A program made the translations under genes and the position numbers. 22,590 nucleotides of DNA from a virus (taxonomy: Duplodnaviria > Heunggongvirae > Uroviricota > Caudoviricetes), in IMG/VR virus record IMGVR_UViG_3300014970_000006, positions 1 through 22,590 of that record; one strand, given 5' to 3'. Positions 5,557 through 22,590 of this stretch are shown in pieces. The number at the start of each line of letters is the position of its first letter. Within the stretch, counting starts at the first letter, position 1. The notes beneath the pieces are model-generated. The model had not been told where the DNA came from, searched no databases, and saw only the letters and a list, made by a program, of their open reading frames with translations.

Positions 5557-6267
5557 GTGTATGGAGCGCTGAGAAGTATGAATCAACAAGACTTGAATTT
5601 TGTCAGAATAGAACTACGTCGTGCGCTGTTTGACTTCTCTGGGGGGACAAAAGGGCAGCTTGAGGCTTTCACTGAACACCCACCAGCAGACAAAAATGCC
5701 ACTCCACGCCGTGGAATTCATCTTGTCGAACTCGAAGGTGATAAGGGACCACGCTTTGTTAACTCGCTTTCCGCGCCATTGTACGTGCAAGAAACACGTA
5801 GCCGCCCCAGGCCAATGCCGCCGATAAAAGATGTAGAATTTGAGTCCGCGCCGTGGCGTAGGGCAGTGTCCGCGCTTAGTGGATACCAGCAGGCTTGGTT
5901 GCGGTACTGTTACGGTTTTGACCTTAACTATACGCACCAGGTGATGATGTGTGAATACGTCTGGAAGGCTTATCAGAAATGCTTGGGTAAAAACTCACTT
6001 CAGGAGCGCGTAGTAAAAAAACTAATAGGCCTAGTATGGCTTGCAGGACAGGAAATTGCTGCAACCCGAAACAATGAAACCTATAAAGACTACGCTGGTG
6101 CGGCGCTGGCCCGTATGGTTAGCGTTGACCGTTCGACATGGTTGCGCGTCTATTCAGGCCACTGGGCTGGGTTAAAGGCCGCTTTTACCCAGCTTGATGA
6201 GTCTGCGCTGGCCATGGCTCTTGAATACTATGAGGATGAAGAAGCTCTCAAAGTGGGAGAAATATGA
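5557..6267 (+). CDS. Putative late-gene antiterminator (Q-like)
   Basis: Called mainly by position: immediately upstream of a promoter plus short-transcript terminator unit and the lysis cassette; no catalytic motif identified. Confidence 0.45.
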   Translation: MYGALRSMNQQDLNFVRIELRRALFDFSGGTKGQLEAFTEHPPADKNATPRRGIHLVELEGDKGPRFVNSLSAPLYVQETRSRPRPMPPIKDVEFESAPWRRAVSALSGYQQAWLRYCYGFDLNYTHQVMMCEYVWKAYQKCLGKNSLQERVVKKLIGLVWLAGQEIAATRNNETYKDYAGAALARMVSVDRSTWLRVYSGHWAGLKAAFTQLDESALAMALEYYEDEEALKVGEI

Positions 6268-16883: not shown

Positions 16884-17485
16884 TGCATAAAGCAATATTA
16901 AATAGTGAGCTTATTGCAACAAAGGCAGGGGATGTTACCGTTTATAACTACGATGGTGAAACACGGGAATATATTTCCACGTCAACTGAATATCTTGCTG
17001 TTGGTGTCGGTATTCCGGCATGTTCCTGTCTTGATGCACCTGGCATACATAAGGTTGGTTATGCAATCTGTCGTTCTGTGAATTTAAATTCATGGGAATA
17101 TGTGCCAGATCATCGCGGTGAAATCGTCTATAGCACCGAAACAGGAGAATCGAAAGAAATCACAGCTCCGGGTGATTATCCTGAAAATACAACCACTATC
17201 GCCCCGTTAACGCCATACGATGAATGGAATGGTGAGAAATGGGTGACAGATACCGAGGCACAGCACGGCGCAGCAGTAGATGCAGCAGAAGCACAGCGCC
17301 CGTTGCTGATTGATACTGCAATGGCCTCCATCAGTCTGATTCAACTGAAATTACAGGCCGGACGGAAGCTGACGCAGGCAGAAACAATCCGCCTTAACGC
17401 TGTGCTGGATTACATTGACGCGGTGACGGCAACAGATACCAGCACAGCGCCGGACGTCATCTGGCCTGAACTGCCGGAGGCGTAG
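16883..17485 (+). CDS. Tail fibre assembly protein (Tfa), active orientation
   Basis: 200 aa; C-terminal ...LDYIDAVTATDTSTAPDVIWPELP typical of Tfa chaperones. Confidence 0.8.
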   Translation: MHKAILNSELIATKAGDVTVYNYDGETREYISTSTEYLAVGVGIPACSCLDAPGIHKVGYAICRSVNLNSWEYVPDHRGEIVYSTETGESKEITAPGDYPENTTTIAPLTPYDEWNGEKWVTDTEAQHGAAVDAAEAQRPLLIDTAMASISLIQLKLQAGRKLTQAETIRLNAVLDYIDAVTATDTSTAPDVIWPELPEA

Positions 17486-17900
17486 GCCATTCAATATCTG
17501 GCGCACCGGAAGTATCGACCAGTTCCAGTGCGTCCAGATAATCCAGCCACAAATTATATTGCGCCAGTTCCTCACCTTTCAGACGACCAATTGATGCTTT
17601 ACCTGGCCATTGTTTACTGTTGATGTATTCGTTGGCCTGGTTAATCAATTGCTGCTTTTTAGTTTCGGCTGATGCAATTTGTTCTTCACGTGTTGGTGGA
17701 GGAATATCTGCCCATGCAGGCAGCCCATCCTCTCCGACACATCTGTATTTTCCTTCTGGTGGTGTATCATAGAAATATTCCCTGAAAATTACTTCGTCTA
17801 TATCAACACCTTTTTCTTCAGGCCATTCACCTTTTTCAACATAAAGAGACTGAAGTTCGTAAGGATATGCCAGGTTGTTTACGTACAGATATTTCATCAT
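17457..17900 (-). CDS. Alternative tail fibre assembly protein (Tfa'), inverted orientation
   Basis: 147 aa; C-terminal ...LDYLDALELVDTSGAPDIEWPTPP parallels the Tfa C-terminus. Confidence 0.75.
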   Translation of the reverse strand: MMKYLYVNNLAYPYELQSLYVEKGEWPEEKGVDIDEVIFREYFYDTPPEGKYRCVGEDGLPAWADIPPPTREEQIASAETKKQQLINQANEYINSKQWPGKASIGRLKGEELAQYNLWLDYLDALELVDTSGAPDIEWPTPPAVQAR

Positions 17901-18220
17901 TACCAGCCCTTAGCGAAAAACGCACCACCTTCAAGACCATAATTGCAGTGAGCTATGAAGCCGGTAGTGCTCCAATTGGTCGCCCCCCACATATTCCCGC
18001 CCCCGAAACCACCATCGCACACAATTACAATGCCCGGTGTCTGTGTAAATGGAATCGGGAATGAAACATTGGCGGATACAGGCCCGTGTTCACCAGGAAA
18101 ACTAATTCGTCCCCACTGTTCAATTGAACCATCTGGCATTTTTCGCCAGCCTGAACCTGATGCATATGATGACATATCAGGTATCTGATTTTCCCCTGTT
18201 CCCACATTTCGTTTTGCCGC
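17900..18220 (-). CDS. Alternative tail fibre variable C-terminal segment, promoterless until inversion
   Basis: Reading frame runs through the right crossover site; Gly-rich fibre-tip-like sequence; no independent start expected. Confidence 0.6.
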
Positions 18221-18241
18221 TTCTCCCAAACCAACGTTTAT
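18220..18241. repeat. Right hix/gix-like crossover site
   Basis: Reverse complement reads AAACGTTGGTTTGGGAGAAG, matching the left site over about 20 nt. Confidence 0.75.
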
Positions 18242-18300
18242 GAAAATGCAGAAATAACGAGCAAATGGCATCATTCCTGCTTTTGTCAGGGAGATCTACC

Positions 18301-18855
18301 ATGCTTATTGGCTATGTACGTGTGTCAACAAATGACCAGAACACAGATCTACAACGTAATGCGCTGAACTGTGCAGGATGCGAGCTGATTTTTGAAGACA
18401 AGATAAGCGGTACAAAGTCCGAAAGGCCGGGACTGAAAAAACTGCTCAGGACATTATCGGCAGGTGACACTCTGGTTGTCTGGAAGCTGGATCGGCTAGG
18501 GCGTAGTATGCGGCATCTGGTCATTCTGGTTGAGGAGTTGCGCGAACGTGGCGTTAATTTTCGCAGCCTGACGGATGCTATTGATACCAGCACACCGATG
18601 GGGCGTTTTTTCTTTCATGTGATGGGTGCCCTGGCTGAAATGGAACGAGAACTGATTGTTGAACGAACAAAAGCTGGACTGGAAGCTGCTCGCGCACAGG
18701 GACGAATTGGTGGACGTCGTCCCAAACTTACACCAGAACAATGGGCGCAGGCCGGGCGATTAATTGCATCAGGCGTTCCTCGCCAGAAGGTGGCGATCAT
18801 CTATGATGTTGGTATATCGACACTGTATAAGAAGTTTCCGGTCGGAGATAAATGA
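18301..18855 (+). CDS. pin: Serine DNA invertase (Pin/Gin/Hin/Cin family)
   Basis: MLIGYVRVSTNDQNTDLQRNAL... with catalytic Ser and C-terminal HTH (GRIGGRRPKLT...); AGGGAG RBS upstream of ATG at 18301; adjacent to the invertible segment. Confidence 0.93.
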   Translation: MLIGYVRVSTNDQNTDLQRNALNCAGCELIFEDKISGTKSERPGLKKLLRTLSAGDTLVVWKLDRLGRSMRHLVILVEELRERGVNFRSLTDAIDTSTPMGRFFFHVMGALAEMERELIVERTKAGLEAARAQGRIGGRRPKLTPEQWAQAGRLIASGVPRQKVAIIYDVGISTLYKKFPVGDK

Positions 18856-18895
18856 AACCGTAGCACGTCGTATGCAAGATCGTGCTGCGGTTTAT
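18856..18895 (+). repeat. Hairpin repeat copy 1
   Basis: CCGTAGCACGTCGTATGCAAGATCGTGCTGCGG: stem GCACG/CGTGC with 13-nt loop; near-identical direct copy at 19873-19912. Confidence 0.6.
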
Positions 18896-18912
18896 GCTTA
18901 TCACTTAAAGAC

Positions 18913-19782
<870 letters not shown>

Positions 19783-19872
19783 CTAATTCTTTGAATTTAC
19801 ATAGTAAAAAAAGATACTTTTCCTCATAGTGTGAGCTAATTTTATGTTTCGTTTGATGATCGGACCGGTCTC

Positions 19873-19912
19873 AAAAACCGCAGGCACGTTGTATGCAAGA
19901 ACGTGCTGTGGC
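19873..19912 (+). repeat. Hairpin repeat copy 2
   Basis: CCGCAGGCACGTTGTATGCAAGAACGTGCTGTGG; direct repeat of copy 1 with about 4 differences. Confidence 0.6.
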
Positions 19913-20067
19913 TGGCTGGGGAACTTCCAATAGTGCGAATATTAAATGATGTCCAGCCGTTACCGTTTTTACGTGTTTATTAGTGAACAAACCACTCGTC
20001 AGCAGACTCCTAGGTATGAACAAAAGTTTTAGCTGAAACTCTATCTGTGGTGCGCGTAACAGAAGTG

Positions 20068-20098
20068 TAATAAAAGGCCCTAGAAAAGGGCCTAAGAT
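20068..20098 (-). terminator. Intrinsic terminator after the small ORF
   Basis: On the minus strand: AGGCCCT-TTTCT-AGGGCCT hairpin followed by TTTATT. Confidence 0.65.
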
Positions 20099-20107
20099 TA
20101 GCAAAGA

Positions 20108-20251
20108 TTATCCTCGATACTTAGAGGCAGGAATTTTGATAGGAAAGGCTGCCAAGCCTTTTTGACGAGCAAAGATCCGTTTACCTTTGACCGTAATAAA
20201 AGGACGGTAAATTGTGATGTATTCCTCAGATACAGCTTTTTCAATGGTCAT
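20108..20251 (-). CDS. Small basic 47-aa ORF downstream of ImmA (below the ORF-track size cut-off)
   Basis: Hand-translated: MTIEKAVSEEYITIYRPFITVKGKRIFARQKGLAAFPIKIPASKYRG; ATG at 20251, TAA at 20108-20110, terminator immediately after. Confidence 0.35.
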   Translation of the reverse strand: MTIEKAVSEEYITIYRPFITVKGKRIFARQKGLAAFPIKIPASKYRG

Positions 20252-20277
20252 ATCGTGTTACCTGTAAAGTTTCGCTG

Positions 20278-20378
20278 TTGACAAAACCTAAGGTAAGCGT
20301 ATACTCACAACCGCCAAGTTTTTCGTATTTGCTTACGATAGGAGAAGCCAGCGACAGCGGTTCGCTGGCTTTTTCGTT
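20278..20378 (+). ncRNA. Candidate small RNA unit: near-consensus promoter plus terminator, convergent with the ImmA/small-ORF transcript
   Basis: TTGACA, 16-17-nt spacer, TATACT at 20278-20306; hairpin AGCCAGCG-ACAGCGGTT-CGCTGGCT plus TTTTT at 20346-20375; no ORF in between. Confidence 0.3.
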
Positions 20379-20910
20379 ATCTTTTTGCATTTTTTCTCAT
20401 CCAGGTTTCAGCCGCTTGTTGACTGACACCAAATGTTTTGCTTATATCTTCAACAGTCATTGTGGGCAAAACTAGTCTTGAGTCAATTAAGAAGTGGCTT
20501 GCAAAAACATCTGCTTGCCATTCGCTGTCTTCATAGATTTTATGCCCTCCACTAGTCTTATTACGTGCATAGATACTTTGATTGCGATGCATGACTAAAT
20601 GACCAAGTTCATGCGCAACAGTGAATCTCGCATGGTTCTCACCATTGCACACTGCATCGTAAACAGATCGCTGTAAAACAATTTTGTTCTTATCTGGATA
20701 AGTCACTGCATAGCGTTTGGGCAGTTCATGATCTTCAACAATTTCTAGCTCAATGCTTTCTGAGGCCATAAGACCTTCTAGTAATACATCCAGTCTCAGA
20801 TATGTGTGATTTGATATCTGAAGAACGTCTCTCAGACGATGAGCGTATGATTTAATCATGCTGGTGCTGAGAGGTGAAACGCGATGGCCAAGTTCTCGTT
20901 TCGCAATCAT
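20377..20910 (-). CDS. ImmA/IrrE-family zinc metallopeptidase
   Basis: HEXXH motif in FTVAHELGHLVMH; 177 aa; directly downstream of and nearly overlapping an XRE HTH gene. Confidence 0.85.
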   Translation of the reverse strand: MIAKRELGHRVSPLSTSMIKSYAHRLRDVLQISNHTYLRLDVLLEGLMASESIELEIVEDHELPKRYAVTYPDKNKIVLQRSVYDAVCNGENHARFTVAHELGHLVMHRNQSIYARNKTSGGHKIYEDSEWQADVFASHFLIDSRLVLPTMTVEDISKTFGVSQQAAETWMRKNAKR

Positions 20911-20913
20911 TAT

Positions 20914-21264
20914 TCAGTCCTTTAACATTTTATTAAGCTTATCGAGTTGCTCTGGACTCAGGTCCTTAAATTTACGAGCAAAAACAAGCATTAGTTCTTT
21001 GTTCTGCTCATTTGCATCCGACATATCAACCTTAATGGACGGTTGAGAAATCTCTGCCTGTTTCTTGAGATTGATGATGTCTTGTCCGCTAAGCTCAAAA
21101 GTTGTTGCAATCGTATTTACTAATGAGTCCGGTATAGCTCTTTTGCCTAATTCAATGGCGGATAAGTAAGCCGAACTAACGCCTAACAGATCAGCCATAT
21201 TTTTGAGCACCATACCCCGGTCTATTCTCATTTTTCTGAGAGTCTTACCAAAGCTAGTTACCAT
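20914..21264 (-). CDS. XRE-family helix-turn-helix transcriptional regulator
   Basis: LRKMRIDRGMVLKNMADLLGVSSAYLSAIELGKRAIP is a Cro/C1-type HTH; GGAGG RBS upstream of ATG at 21264. Confidence 0.85.
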   Translation of the reverse strand: MVTSFGKTLRKMRIDRGMVLKNMADLLGVSSAYLSAIELGKRAIPDSLVNTIATTFELSGQDIINLKKQAEISQPSIKVDMSDANEQNKELMLVFARKFKDLSPEQLDKLNKMLKD

Positions 21265-21546
21265 GTTGCGCCTCCTACAATCCATGCTCACTTATACTAA
21301 AAACCAAACTCAAGATCAACAAAAATTGTAGAATTTTTTAATCTCAGCGTGTGATGACAATCTACATAAAATCATGAAATGGTGCAAGGCGTAACTTAAA
21401 AAATACCACATGTAGTGTCAATTTTATGTGCTGTATGGATATATGGGGTTGGTAAACTTTTGCTCTTTTGTGCTCCTCAGCTATATGGTTGTTTGATTTT
21501 TGAACATCTTGTGGAACATAAATTGGGTTTATGCTTTTCCCTTTCG

Positions 21547-21574
21547 GTGACAACATGTTTATAGGATGTATAAT
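21547..21574 (+). promoter_or_regulatory. Sigma70-like promoter for the Bro-N gene
   Basis: GTGACA, 16-nt spacer, TATAAT; AAGGAGG Shine-Dalgarno 7 nt before the GTG start. Confidence 0.5.
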
Positions 21575-21597
21575 CCATAAAAAAAGGAGGGGATGGC

Positions 21598-22359
21598 GTG
21601 CAAAAGAATTTGTTACAATTATGCTACGAAGGAGAGTGTGGAGAAAATTATATCCGTAGCATGAATGAAAAAGGGCAGATTTTTGTTTCACTTTCAGATG
21701 TGCTAAGAACGCTTTCTGCTGAGAACAGAAAACTGGATGGAAAGACTTCTCAAAGCTTGCTCACTGTAATAAGAGCGGTAATAAAAACTTTAGATCCAGA
21801 TGAGTTTAGGAATGTTTCTCTTGTCGTGGATGGTGAAACTATCTCTGAGGTATTTCTTACTGAACCAGGTCTATATAGAGTACTTGCTCAGGATACTACT
21901 GCTGCGGGGAAAAAATTCCAACGCTGGCTTTTTCATCAGGTCCTTCCGTCTATTCGTGAATTTGGTGTATATCCTCCGCCACCTAAACAAGAACGTTCAG
22001 AACTGAGTGCTTTTGCTAACAGTCTGCAGCAGACGGTTCAAGCATTGGTAATGGAAATAGAAAAACGTGAAGAGTTAGAAAGTAGAGTAAACCAAGTTGA
22101 ACTAAAAGTTAACTCGTTAGAAAGTTTAAGAGATTTGTCTCAGTTCAGAAGTGTTCCTCAACGATTGATGGAGTTAGGTTTGGATACCTATTCAGTTGAG
22201 GAACTTTGGCAATGGTGTGAAAAATTGCGTAGTGAACGTGGAGCAGAAAGAATTAAGTGCCCCTCCGGATTGAATATAAATTCTTGCTATCCATTAGCTT
22301 TGGTTGATGAAGCTATCGCTATATACCAGAAAGTAGTTGAGGCAAGAACACGTCAGTGA
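21598..22359 (+). CDS. Bro-N domain protein (antirepressor-like) with coiled-coil C-terminus
   Basis: VFLTEPGLYRVLAQDTTAAGKKFQRWLFHQVLPSIREFGVY is a Bro-N signature; GTG start with strong SD. Confidence 0.8.
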   Translation: MQKNLLQLCYEGECGENYIRSMNEKGQIFVSLSDVLRTLSAENRKLDGKTSQSLLTVIRAVIKTLDPDEFRNVSLVVDGETISEVFLTEPGLYRVLAQDTTAAGKKFQRWLFHQVLPSIREFGVYPPPPKQERSELSAFANSLQQTVQALVMEIEKREELESRVNQVELKVNSLESLRDLSQFRSVPQRLMELGLDTYSVEELWQWCEKLRSERGAERIKCPSGLNINSCYPLALVDEAIAIYQKVVEARTRQ

Positions 22360-22376
22360 GCTTGAGGGAAAAAAAC

Positions 22377-22404
22377 AAAAAAGCCCGCATAAGCGGGCTT
22401 TTTT
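22377..22404. terminator. Bidirectional intrinsic terminator between the Bro-N gene and ssrA
   Basis: A-run, GCCCGCATAAGCGGGC hairpin, T-run. Confidence 0.8.
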
Positions 22405-22529
22405 GTCACTCGGGAGCCGCGGCTCCTTTGCGTATCCTTTTTTGTCTCCTCACCGTCTGGTCGGTGTCCTGCTGAGACTGCTAACTTCCTGTTTTTATTG
22501 GTGTTGTCCTTACACCGTCCAATCATGAT

Positions 22530-22590
22530 TGGTGGAGCTGGCGGGAGTTGAACCCGCGTCCGAAATTCCTACATCCTCGGTACTACATGC
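22530..22590 (-). ncRNA. ssrA: tmRNA 3' end (tRNA-like domain), truncated by the window edge
   Basis: Reverse complement reads ...GTAGGAATTTCGGACGCGGGTTCAACTCCCGCCAGCTCCACCA, the tmRNA 3' terminus. Confidence 0.85.

What the first reader, a model, noticed from the sequence alone, without database searches (positions are those of the whole stretch)
20108..21264. XRE-HTH / ImmA-type metallopeptidase / 47-aa ORF operon: candidate damage-responsive switch controlling neighbouring cargo
An HTH regulator immediately followed by a HEXXH ImmA/IrrE-type peptidase is the architecture of ImmR/ImmA and of CapH/CapP-type regulators that gate mobile-element induction or defence operons. A third small basic ORF (47 aa, not in the ORF track) and a terminator follow on the same strand, and the GIY-YIG gene lies further downstream in the same orientation. 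The function of the small ORF and the target of the regulator pair are unknown.
Basis: partly seen in the sequence, partly recalled or inferred. Interest (0 to 1): 0.6.

Follow-up and report, generated by a model that had tools for sequence, protein, structure and literature searches.

The report
Protease-gated repressor, antisense RNA, small protein
The repressor/protease gene pair is real, and it belongs to a widespread, apparently undescribed phage and plasmid cassette that also contains a predicted antisense small RNA and a conserved 47-residue protein, which is probably the cassette's true output rather than the neighbouring defence nuclease.

Summary
On the minus strand lie an XRE/CapH-like repressor gene (21264..20914), a short ImmA-type HEXXH peptidase gene (20910..20377), a 47-aa ORF (20251..20108) and a terminator (20093..20075).

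- The GIY-YIG gene is PD-T4-3, a known single-gene defence system. It occurs in 972 of 5426 E. coli genomes, against 34 for the pair, in its own hairpin-flanked cassette.
- Bro-N is linked only within the enterobacterial clade.

Across 84 related loci (ImmA identity 100% to 29%) the conserved unit has four parts: XRE, ImmA, a 120-200 nt gap, and a 36-52 aa basic beta-strand protein. The small ORF is under strong purifying selection (20 synonymous against 3 non-synonymous codon changes). Its family has 727 clusters at 50% identity and no Pfam, PDB or fold match.

The gap, annotated by PGAP as a 49-aa ORF, is non-coding. It carries a near-consensus antisense promoter and terminator, predicting a ~75-nt cis-antisense RNA. 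The same layout recurs in many independent groups.

Best model: a LexA-independent, protease-gated switch whose small-protein output is thresholded by antisense RNA. It is built like tisB/istR-1 or P22 arc-sar-ant. What the small protein does remains unknown.

The parts
20914..21264 (-). XRE/CapH-like repressor gene (116 aa): N-terminal HTH plus a helical C-terminal domain carrying a conserved F-A-R-[KR] motif
   Evidence: Pfam HTH_19/HTH_31/HTH_3. PADLOC capH 1.2e-10 over residues 3-115. A 114-128 aa XRE ORF precedes ImmA in almost every related locus.
20377..20910 (-). Short ImmA-type M78 metallopeptidase gene (177 aa). HELGH at residues 100-104 and an invariant HKIYEDSEWQAD at 123-134. No GAF domain.
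   Evidence: Pfam Peptidase_M78 2.8e-11. PADLOC capP 5e-15, covering profile positions 31-146 of 242 only. Alignment A1. PDB CapP 7t5t matches the catalytic core only.
20278..20305 (+). Predicted sigma-70 promoter of the antisense RNA: -35 TTGACA (20278-20283), 16-nt spacer, -10 TATACT (20300-20305)
   Evidence: 11 of 12 consensus matches. Both hexamers are invariant while the spacer varies in relatives with 78-88% ImmA identity. Equivalent antisense promoters occur in 9 of 24 independent groups, against 0.75 expected.
20312..20386 (+). Predicted ~75-nt cis-antisense small RNA: stem-loop 1 (UCGUA...UACGA), then a terminator hairpin (20341-20375) and a U-run. It is complementary to the ImmA-to-small-ORF spacer of the operon mRNA.
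   Evidence: Terminator scan. MFE -26.8 kcal/mol, z=-4.1. Stems conserved and loops variable. Spacer core 93.5-99% identical, against 78-81% for the adjacent coding DNA. The extended stem uses G-U pairs that form only on this strand.
20241..20390 (-). 49-aa ORF annotated by PGAP (WP_001519526.1); probably not a gene. It overlies the antisense RNA locus.
   Evidence: Frameshifted or absent in L019-L022 although the nucleotides are conserved. No ORF in the equivalent gap of distant relatives. No family hit.
20108..20251 (-). 47-aa basic small-protein gene, the conserved third protein component, with an AGGT Shine-Dalgarno at 20260-20263
   Evidence: Profile hits occur only at this position. 20 synonymous against 3 non-synonymous codon changes versus L019. 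727 family clusters. AF2 pLDDT 84.8, four beta strands. No Pfam, NCBIfam, PDB or fold match.
20075..20093 (-). Intrinsic terminator-like hairpin that ends the operon
   Evidence: A terminator lies 6-28 nt after the small-ORF stop in 12 of 24 independent groups.
21265..21415 (-). Operon control region. Predicted P_xre has -35 TTGATC (21319..21314) and -10 TATAAG (21296..21291), with SD GGAGG (21275..21271). TGTAG/CTACA motifs repeat at 21275-79, 21327-32, 21361-66 and 21411-15 and are candidate operators.
   Evidence: This is the only stretch upstream of XRE conserved among relatives that have different upstream neighbours. The motif positions were read from the sequence. Binding is inferred, not shown.
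21598..22359 (+). Bro-N / Ant-like gene, divergent from the operon. Linked within the enterobacterial clade but not part of the family-wide core.
   Evidence: Pfam Bro-N. PHROG anti-repressor Ant 4e-17. Found in 36 E. coli genomes against 34 for the operon. 78% identical, in the same place, in phage LLS.

Best explanation
The locus is a self-contained four-part cassette carried as accessory cargo by temperate phages and some plasmids. Here it lies at the ssrA-proximal end of a prophage.

Shown by comparison:
- The conserved unit is XRE repressor, short ImmA peptidase, a 120-200 nt spacer and a 36-52 aa basic beta-strand protein, usually followed by a terminator.
- The spacer carries a conserved antisense promoter and terminator, that is, a cis-antisense RNA gene.
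- The small ORF is under protein-level purifying selection.

Inferred mechanism:
1. XRE binds the TGTAG repeats and represses its own promoter.
2. A stress signal, by analogy DNA damage or phage infection, makes ImmA cleave XRE in its C-terminal oligomerisation domain, as ImmA cleaves ImmR and CapP cleaves CapH.
3. Transcription of xre-immA then reads through the spacer into the small ORF.
4. The antisense RNA, made constitutively, pairs with the spacer of that mRNA. The small ORF's Shine-Dalgarno also lies in a hairpin. So the small protein is made only when operon transcription exceeds the antisense pool.
5. The small protein is the output, most likely a nucleic-acid-binding effector that arrests growth or blocks an infecting phage.

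In design this is a portable, LexA-independent counterpart of the SOS-controlled type I toxin loci tisB/istR-1 and symE/symR. PD-T4-3 next door is an independent defence cassette.
For: Architecture:
- 64 of 84 loci have the small ORF at E<0.001, only at the expected place.
- Starting instead from small-protein hits, an HTH gene plus a Peptidase_M78 gene lies immediately upstream in 3 of 4 cases.
- An XRE gene precedes ImmA in almost every locus.

Coding of the small ORF:
- Nucleotide differences by codon position are 3:2:20, with 20 synonymous against 3 non-synonymous codon changes.

Antisense RNA:
- The promoter matches 11 of 12 consensus positions and is followed by a terminator.
- The hexamers and stems are invariant while the spacer and loops vary; 1-nt indels break the annotated 49-aa frame.
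- The spacer core is more conserved than the flanking genes.
- Across 24 independent groups, antisense promoters occur in 9 against 0.75+-0.79 expected, and antisense terminators in 14 against 2.1+-1.3. Sense-strand counts are 1 and 3.
- The predicted RNA folds with z=-4.1.
- A second group shows conserved hairpins with G-U pairs specific to the antisense strand and 4 compensatory pairs.

Self-containment:
- Neighbours vary.
- Upstream conservation ends about 150 nt before the XRE start.
- A terminator follows the small ORF.

Accessory rather than master switch:
- The cultured phage LLS carries the cassette next to attP yet has its own CI/Cro elsewhere.

Defence or stress context:
- The same slot holds an RM system or other cargo in other prophages.
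- Neighbours elsewhere include RM, HicB, Panacea, UmuDC-like, RecA and DinI genes.
- The cassette also occurs on Acinetobacter plasmids.

Other:
- No LexA box lies in 18000-22590.
- The small ORF's Shine-Dalgarno is sequestered in the predicted sense-strand fold.
- CapH/CapP and ImmR/ImmA cleavage logic is documented in bioRxiv 10.1101/2022.04.27.489752.
Against: - There are no expression data. The antisense RNA, XRE cleavage and operator binding are all predictions.
- ImmA here lacks the GAF domain through which CapP senses ssDNA, so the signal is unknown.
- The small protein is not hydrophobic, unlike most type I toxins, and nothing shows it to be toxic.
- The antisense RNA does not overlap the small ORF's Shine-Dalgarno or start codon; it ends about 60 nt upstream. 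Its mode of action is therefore uncertain.
- About a third of the independent groups show neither a clear promoter nor a clear terminator with my simple scans. These are mostly high-GC or non-enterobacterial hosts.
- An orphan small ORF without XRE/ImmA exists in Vibrio parahaemolyticus.
- The fold gave no structural match, so the nucleic-acid-binding claim rests on charge and shape alone.
Confidence: 0.5

Rival explanations
1. Prophage-induction input. After XRE cleavage, the small protein (and/or the Bro-N/Ant-like protein) acts as an antirepressor that inactivates the phage's main CI repressor. The antisense RNA limits antirepressor synthesis, as sar RNA limits Ant in the P22 arc-sar-ant region, or as in the TF-smORF modules of linear plasmid-like phages.
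For: - The gene order repressor, antisense RNA, effector mirrors P22 immI (established knowledge; review PMC5415839).
- Small phage proteins of about 50-60 aa with no homologs are proven antirepressors (bioRxiv 10.1101/2022.09.16.508337).
- The Bro-N gene hits PHROG anti-repressor Ant families and is linked in the enterobacterial clade.
- Most loci are in phages or prophages.
Against: - The cassette sits in unrelated phage backbones at varied positions: Mu-like, lambdoid, next to portal, lysis, integrase or Mor genes.
- It also occurs on plasmids and in a non-phage island. That fits poorly with a protein that must recognise one cognate repressor.
- Known TF-smORF modules are divergent and activator-driven, and they lack both a peptidase and an antisense RNA.
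Confidence: 0.2
2. The small protein is not the output but a cofactor or feedback element of the switch. It could be an adaptor that delivers a nucleic-acid signal to the GAF-less ImmA, or an inhibitor of XRE or ImmA. The real regulated targets would then be Bro-N or genes acting in trans.
For: - ImmA lacks the ssDNA-sensing GAF domain of CapP/IrrE.
- The small protein is basic and always co-inherited with ImmA.
- CapH/CapP targets are always divergent from the regulator pair, as Bro-N is here.
Against: - A sensor subunit would be expected to be present before induction. Instead it is placed distal to a read-through barrier and opposed by an antisense RNA.
- No divergent gene is conserved across the family; the upstream neighbour is co-oriented in about half of the loci.
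- The Bro-N promoter lacks the candidate operator motif.
Confidence: 0.13
3. A classical Xre-COG2856 toxin-antitoxin-like selfish pair, in which the peptidase is the harmful component and XRE the antidote. The small ORF would be incidental.
For: Makarova et al. 2009 predicted Xre-COG2856 as a TA-like mobile module, often with a third component (PMC2701414). The cassette is mobile and also plasmid-borne.
Against: - The small ORF and the spacer are conserved as strongly as the pair itself and occur at only one position.
- The third components Makarova et al. predicted were PIN or RelE, not this protein.
- ImmA-family peptidases with known function cleave their partner repressor.
Confidence: 0.07
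4. The conserved spacer is a DNA- or mRNA-level element rather than an antisense RNA gene. It could be a partial terminator or attenuator together with a protein-binding site that controls read-through into the small ORF.
For: The hairpin next to the ImmA stop could also form in the sense transcript, and a few groups have bidirectional terminators. The sense RNA folds better than shuffles, z=-2.8.
Against: - The U-run and the G-U-extended stem exist only on the antisense strand.
- Two invariant hexamers at 16-17 nt spacing, matching TTGACA/TATAAT, recur on the antisense strand in independent groups far above chance. Almost none occur on the sense strand.
Confidence: 0.08

Closest known systems
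ImmR/ImmA of Bacillus ICEBs1 and phage phi105
   Same: An XRE-type HTH repressor gene is immediately followed by a short (~170 aa) COG2856/M78 HEXXH peptidase without a GAF domain, on a mobile element. The presumed logic is that the protease cleaves the repressor under stress.
   Different: ImmR is the element's master immunity repressor. Here the cassette is accessory; phage LLS has a separate CI/Cro. No conserved small ORF or antisense RNA has been described for ImmR/ImmA. Sequence similarity is limited to the domain families.
CapH/CapP regulators of CBASS and other defence operons (also DdrO/IrrE of Deinococcus)
   Same: XRE matches the capH profile over its whole length, including the C-terminal domain. 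The peptidase core matches capP, and CapP is the nearest solved structure. The pair lies in a defence-rich hotspot, and a divergent gene (Bro-N) is present in this clade.
   Different: The window's ImmA lacks the GAF domain and the cysteine switch. The family-wide conserved partner is co-directional and downstream (the small ORF), not a divergent operon. An antisense RNA layer is added.
SOS-controlled type I toxin-antitoxin loci (tisB/istR-1, symE/symR, dinQ/agrB)
   Same: A cleavable repressor controls a small-protein gene, and a constitutive antisense RNA made from its own sigma-70 promoter just upstream of, and divergent from, the small ORF buffers basal expression. As with IstR-1, pairing lies upstream of a structured ribosome-binding site.
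   Different: The repressor is a cassette-encoded XRE with its own protease rather than host LexA/RecA. The small protein is a basic beta-strand protein with no similarity to those toxins. Neither toxicity nor RNA pairing has been tested.
Phage P22 immI (arc - sar RNA - ant) and P1 c4/icd/ant
   Same: A repressor gene, an antisense RNA encoded in the intercistronic spacer, and a downstream effector gene lie in one operon of a temperate phage, outside the main immunity region.
   Different: The proteins are unrelated. sar covers the ant ribosome-binding site, whereas this RNA ends about 60 nt upstream of the start codon. A peptidase is present here.
TF-smORF induction modules of linear plasmid-like phages (Silpe et al.)
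   Same: A phage-encoded XRE-type regulator is paired with an unannotated ~50-aa protein of no known family that acts as the output.
   Different: Those are divergent activator-smORF pairs without a peptidase or an antisense RNA. Their smORFs are poorly conserved, whereas this small protein forms a large family.
PD-T4-3 (single-gene GIY-YIG defence system)
   Same: The downstream GIY-YIG gene is a member (PADLOC E=2.7e-140).
   Different: It is not part of the cassette. It has an independent distribution, its own flanking repeats and its own upstream region.

Membership tests
ImmR/ImmA-type module | XRE/cI-type HTH repressor gene adjacent to and co-transcribed with a COG2856/M78 HEXXH peptidase gene | tested here: met
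   Pfam HTH_3/19/31 and Peptidase_M78. The genes are 3 nt apart on the same strand. The pair is conserved in all related loci.
ImmR/ImmA-type module | The repressor is the master immunity regulator of the host element (controls excision or lytic genes) | tested here: not met
   Phage LLS carries the cassette beside attP but has separate CI/Cro genes. The cassette's position and neighbours vary among phages and plasmids.
ImmR/ImmA-type module | The peptidase cleaves the repressor in response to a signal | not testable with these tools
   This needs biochemistry. A conserved F-A-R-[KR] motif in the XRE C-terminal helix resembles the CapH cleavage context F82|R83, but that is an analogy only.
CapH/CapP | CapH: HTH plus a C-terminal helical oligomerisation domain | tested here: met
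   PADLOC capH 1.2e-10, protein residues 3-115 on profile positions 5-96 of 103.
CapH/CapP | CapP: M78 peptidase plus central HTH plus a C-terminal GAF domain (the ssDNA sensor) | tested here: not met
   The protein is 177 aa. The capP profile is matched only at positions 31-146 of 242. PDB CapP 7t5t (291 aa) aligns only at residues 84-144.
CapH/CapP | Cysteine-switch loop (present in about one third of CapP proteins) | tested here: not met
   The position aligned with CapP Cys113 is Ala115, which is invariant in the subfamily.
CapH/CapP | The pair lies upstream of, and divergent from, the regulated defence operon | tested here: inconclusive
   A divergent Bro-N gene is present here and in phage LLS. 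It is not a known defence operon, and no divergent gene is conserved family-wide.
Type I toxin-antitoxin (tisB/istR-1-like) | A cis-encoded antisense RNA with its own promoter and terminator, complementary to the small-protein mRNA | tested here: inconclusive
   The prediction is strong in silico. No transcript data are available.
Type I toxin-antitoxin (tisB/istR-1-like) | The small protein is toxic when expressed without the RNA | not testable with these tools
   The only hint is one E. coli genome with an IS3 inserted between the spacer and the intact small ORF.
Type I toxin-antitoxin (tisB/istR-1-like) | A small hydrophobic membrane peptide (typical, but not universal) | tested here: not met
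   The 47-aa protein has a net charge of about +7 and is predicted to be all-beta and soluble.
PD-T4-3 | Single GIY-YIG protein matching the PD-T4-3 profile | tested here: met
   PADLOC PDLC04031 E=2.7e-140 over the full length; Pfam LEM-3_GIY-YIG. This applies to 18913-19686, not to the operon.
Ribosomal protein L36 (a label JGI gives to two family members) | Match to the L36 family or to solved L36 chains | tested here: not met
   No Pfam hit to Ribosomal_L36 among 28 members at E<=10. No PDB L36 hit with the profile.

The most novel reading that the evidence does not exclude
This is a previously unrecognised, widespread four-component stress-triggered effector cassette of phages and plasmids. 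A self-contained repressor/protease sensor, independent of LexA and RecA, drives a new family of ~40-50 aa beta-strand proteins, with expression gated by a dedicated cis-antisense RNA. The small protein would be a new kind of nucleic-acid-targeting toxin or anti-phage effector. The cassette would then be a portable 'private SOS-controlled type I toxin-antitoxin / abortive-infection' system.
Probability: 0.35. Interest if true: 0.8.

Novelty: new variant of a known kind. Interest (0 to 1): 0.62.

Why it matters
XRE plus ImmA/IrrE pairs are among the commonest regulator pairs on mobile elements, yet what they control is usually unknown.

This work identifies a large subfamily, marked by HKIYEDSEWQAD, whose conserved output is a mostly unannotated small protein behind a predicted antisense RNA. 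That has three consequences.

- It gives a concrete, testable target for these regulators.
- It adds a new small-protein family: 727 clusters at 50% identity, with no Pfam, PDB or fold match.
- It corrects an annotation error: the 49-aa 'hypothetical protein' is probably an RNA locus.

If the small protein proves to be a toxin, a defence effector or an antirepressor, the cassette would be a compact stress-inducible switch that works without LexA. It would be useful both for understanding prophage-host conflict and as a synthetic-biology part. A cultured K-12 phage, LLS, carries the cassette, so experiments are straightforward.

Tried and rejected
- Co-regulation of the GIY-YIG gene. Rejected on distribution (972 against 34 genomes), on cassette boundaries and flanking hairpin repeats, and on published stand-alone activity.
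- The 49-aa ORF as a fourth protein. Rejected: it is frameshifted in close relatives despite conserved nucleotides, and absent in distant ones.
- Known RNA families in the spacer. Rfam shows nothing above noise.
- LexA control. No CTGT-N8-ACAG site with one mismatch or fewer lies in 18000-22590. The CTGTATGG...GGGG site I noticed by eye near 21432 does not fit.
- A constant neighbouring gene as target. Pfam on 61 upstream and 68 downstream neighbours shows no common partner.
- A single-sequence search with the 47-aa protein found only 5 close relatives. The family appeared only with a profile.
- One Python statistics run timed out and was redone with mononucleotide shuffles.
Full report
**1. 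What is in the window**

The feature lies on the minus strand.
- The XRE gene runs 21264..20914 (116 aa; Pfam HTH_19, HTH_31 and HTH_3).
- Three bases later the ImmA/IrrE-type gene runs 20910..20377 (177 aa, HELGH at residues 100-104; Peptidase_M78 at 2.8e-11).
- NCBI annotation then places two small ORFs, one of 49 aa (20390..20241) and one of 47 aa (20251..20108).
- A terminator-like hairpin follows at 20093..20075.
- The GIY-YIG gene (19686..18913) is in the same orientation.
- A Bro-N gene (21598..22359) is divergent.
- The window ends in the 3' end of ssrA, as alignment to annotated genomes shows.

**2. Genomic setting**

The block 18855-22590 is 99.8% identical to E. coli C3, where it follows lambda-like tail-fibre genes. 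In the window it follows a Pin/Fin-type invertase instead.

The cultured lambdoid phage LLS infects K-12 and has its attP in a tmRNA fragment. Its gene order is the same: invertase, two small genes, ImmA, XRE, one small gene, a Bro-N gene (78% identical to the window's), then attP.

LLS has its own CI/Cro elsewhere (Genome Res 2025, PMC12315714). The XRE/ImmA pair is therefore accessory cargo in the region between the tail fibres and attP. It is not the master lysis-lysogeny switch.

**3. The GIY-YIG gene is not a target**

- The gene is PD-T4-3 (PADLOC E=2.7e-140). [quoted passage not shown]
- It occurs in 972 of 5426 complete E. coli genomes. The operon occurs in 34 and Bro-N in 36.
- Its cassette (18855-19896, including about 150-200 bp upstream of the gene) is shared with prophages in which the next slot holds an AraC gene or a type II RM system.
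- The cassette is flanked by a 28-nt hairpin-forming direct repeat at 18863-18890 and 19884-19911.
- In LLS the corresponding slot holds a DinI-like gene.

**4. The conserved unit**

Searches with the ImmA protein recovered 4 genomic loci and 80 viral-contig loci. These span ImmA identity from 100% down to 29%. The subfamily is marked by an invariant HKIYEDSEWQAD after the HEXXH motif.

An XRE gene of 114-128 aa precedes ImmA in almost every locus.

At 120-250 nt after the ImmA stop, on the same strand, lies a 36-52 aa basic ORF. Its core looks like vvIYRPFITkkGKRIYAxxxGxkAFxIxI. Variants include forms flanked by cysteine pairs.

- A profile built from 17 seed ORFs was run against all 15,440 stop-to-stop frames of these loci. 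It hit 64 loci at E<0.001, or 69 counting weaker hits. Every one of those hits was at that position.
- Nothing scored below E=0.01 anywhere else.
- Six of the non-hit loci carry a Cys-rich ORF of a different sequence type at the same place.

Starting from the small protein instead gave the same picture. Three of four family members looked up have an HTH gene and a Peptidase_M78 gene immediately upstream. The fourth, in a Vibrio parahaemolyticus island with AbiH and KAP NTPase genes, is an orphan.

Neighbouring genes on both sides are otherwise variable. Sequence conservation upstream of XRE stops about 150 nt before its start codon. A terminator follows the small ORF in 12 of 24 independent groups. 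The cassette also occurs on 16 Acinetobacter plasmids.

**5. The 47-aa ORF encodes a protein**

- Against relatives with 78-88% ImmA identity, nucleotide differences fall 3:2:20 by codon position. There are 20 synonymous and 3 non-synonymous codon changes in 38 codons.
- A profile search of 1.84 billion representative proteins finds 727 clusters at E<=0.001. Nearly all are stand-alone proteins of 37-60 aa.
- There is no Pfam, NCBIfam, PHROG, PADLOC or PDB sequence match.
- The AlphaFold2 model is confident (pLDDT 84.8). It shows a four-strand beta meander with one short helix.

**6. The 49-aa ORF is an RNA locus**

In the same relatives the spacer core is 93.5-99% identical. The small ORF next to it is only 78-81% identical. 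Single-base indels destroy the 49-aa reading frame.

The invariant blocks, read on the plus strand, are:
- TTGACA at 20278-20283;
- TATACT at 20300-20305, after a variable 16-nt spacer;
- a hairpin at 20341-20375 with conserved stems and variable loops, followed by a U-run.

This predicts a transcript of about 75 nt (about 20312-20386). It folds with z=-4.1. It is fully complementary to the ImmA-to-small-ORF spacer of the operon mRNA.

I clustered the spacers into 24 sequence-independent groups.

| Feature | Antisense strand (of 24 representatives) | Expected from shuffles | Sense strand |
|---|---|---|---|
| Promoter, at least 10 of 12 matches | 9 | 0.75+-0.79 (maximum 3) | 1 |
| Terminator | 14 | 2.1+-1.3 (maximum 6) | 3 |

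The -35 hexamer always lies about 29-65 nt from the small-ORF start codon, and the terminator lies next to the ImmA stop.

In a second group the antisense strand shows conserved hairpins. Several of their G-U pairs could not form on the sense strand, and four pairs are compensatory.

Rfam has no matching family. My literature searches found no description of this arrangement.

**7. Control region**

The conserved 150 nt upstream of XRE contain:
- a plausible promoter, with -35 TTGATC at 21319..21314 and -10 TATAAG at 21296..21291;
- a GGAGG Shine-Dalgarno;
- repeated TGTAG/CTACA motifs at 21275-79, 21327-32, 21361-66 and 21411-15.

These motifs are candidate XRE operators; that is an inference. 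No LexA box is present.

The Bro-N promoter (21547-21574) lies outside the conserved block and has no such motif.

**8. Relation to known regulators**

XRE matches the capH profile end to end. ImmA matches only the catalytic core of capP and of the solved CapP structure.
- ImmA lacks the GAF domain that senses ssDNA in CapP.
- It has Ala at the cysteine-switch position.
- In architecture it is therefore a short ImmA-type enzyme.

CapH/CapP pairs are always divergent from their target operon. Here the family-wide partner is downstream and co-directional.

**9. Mechanism proposed**

Shown:
- the four-part conserved architecture;
- coding constraint on the small ORF;
- nucleotide-level and strand-specific constraint on the spacer.

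Inferred:
- XRE represses its own promoter.
- A stress signal lets ImmA cleave XRE.
- Read-through transcription then reaches the small ORF. Its Shine-Dalgarno is sequestered in a predicted hairpin.
- The constitutive antisense RNA sets a threshold, by pairing and RNase III cleavage, by blocking an upstream standby site, or by promoter interference.
- The small basic protein is the output.

The design matches the SOS-controlled type I loci tisB/istR-1 and symE/symR, and the P22 arc-sar-ant operon (established knowledge).

I favour a generic effector, meaning growth arrest or defence, over a cognate antirepressor, for three reasons.
- The cassette moves among unrelated phage backbones, plasmids and an island.
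- It sits in a slot that other prophages fill with defence genes.
- Its neighbours elsewhere are often defence, TA or SOS genes.

This preference is modest. No data here show what the small protein does.

**10. Verdict**

- The real interest lies in the conserved antisense RNA plus small-protein output. As far as I could find, this is an undescribed variant of the ImmR/ImmA-CapH/CapP theme.

Noticed in passing
window 18863-18890 and 19884-19911: A 28-nt hairpin-forming direct repeat (GCACGTyGTATGCAAGAwCGTGCTGyGG, 89% identical) brackets the PD-T4-3 cassette. Similar sequence marks cargo boundaries in other E. coli prophages (L003, L004). It may be a terminator reused as a recombination or cassette-exchange junction.
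   Followed up: partly
window 18913-19686 (-): The GIY-YIG gene is the known single-gene defence system PD-T4-3. It is present in 972 of 5426 complete E. coli genomes, usually right after prophage tail-fibre or invertase genes.
   Followed up: yes
window 22520-22590 (-) and 22374-22407: The window ends in the 3' end of ssrA (tmRNA), the attachment site of this prophage. A perfect 14-bp bidirectional terminator hairpin lies just after Bro-N. ARAGORN does not call the truncated tmRNA.
   Followed up: partly
window 18265-18855 (+) and 17457-18274: A Pin/Fin-type serine invertase lies next to oppositely oriented tail-fibre and tail-fibre-assembly ORFs, that is, an invertible host-range segment as in Mu, P1 and phage LLS.
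   Followed up: no
L094 3501-3653 (Vibrio parahaemolyticus MVKN01000004.1): An orphan member of the small-protein family has no XRE/ImmA upstream. It sits in an island with AbiH, KAP NTPase and TrbL genes. About 255 nt upstream there is an antisense terminator-like hairpin, and a near-LexA-box with N9 spacing (CTGT-N9-ACAG).
   Followed up: partly
L101 1270-2601 (E. coli LZSFT34) and E. coli EC02 (hit H53): An IS3-family element is inserted exactly between the spacer and the intact 47-aa ORF in LZSFT34. A ~1.3-kb insertion, inferred from BLAST piece boundaries and coordinates, interrupts XRE in EC02. LZSFT34 also has a retron Ec48 system beyond Bro-N.
   Followed up: partly
L090 about 5700-5860 (Acinetobacter plasmid pAS80-1): The small ORF on this plasmid has one extra T in a T-run. 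This shifts the frame at the C-terminus (AWAFF... instead of AWAFLVPCAT*). It could be a sequencing error, decay or phase variation. The cassette lies beside a ThiF/E1-like operon.
   Followed up: no
proteins P0029 and P0047: JGI labels two members of the small-protein family 'ribosomal protein L36'. Neither Pfam nor the PDB supports this; the resemblance is limited to a CRxxIxRNG-like turn.
   Followed up: yes
L091 6667-6807 (Escherichia phage LLS, PQ299149): The deposited LLS annotation leaves out the small ORF (MGITNTNEEYITIYRPFITVKGKRIFAHQRGLTAFPIKIPVSKYRG) between genes 26 and 27. Its gene 25, labelled 'virulence protein', is DinI-like.
   Followed up: yes
L092 14178-15772 (E. coli C7 prophage): A P22 immI-like Arc/Arc/Ant module is inserted among the tail genes of the lambdoid prophage that carries the identical cassette in strain C7.
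   Followed up: no
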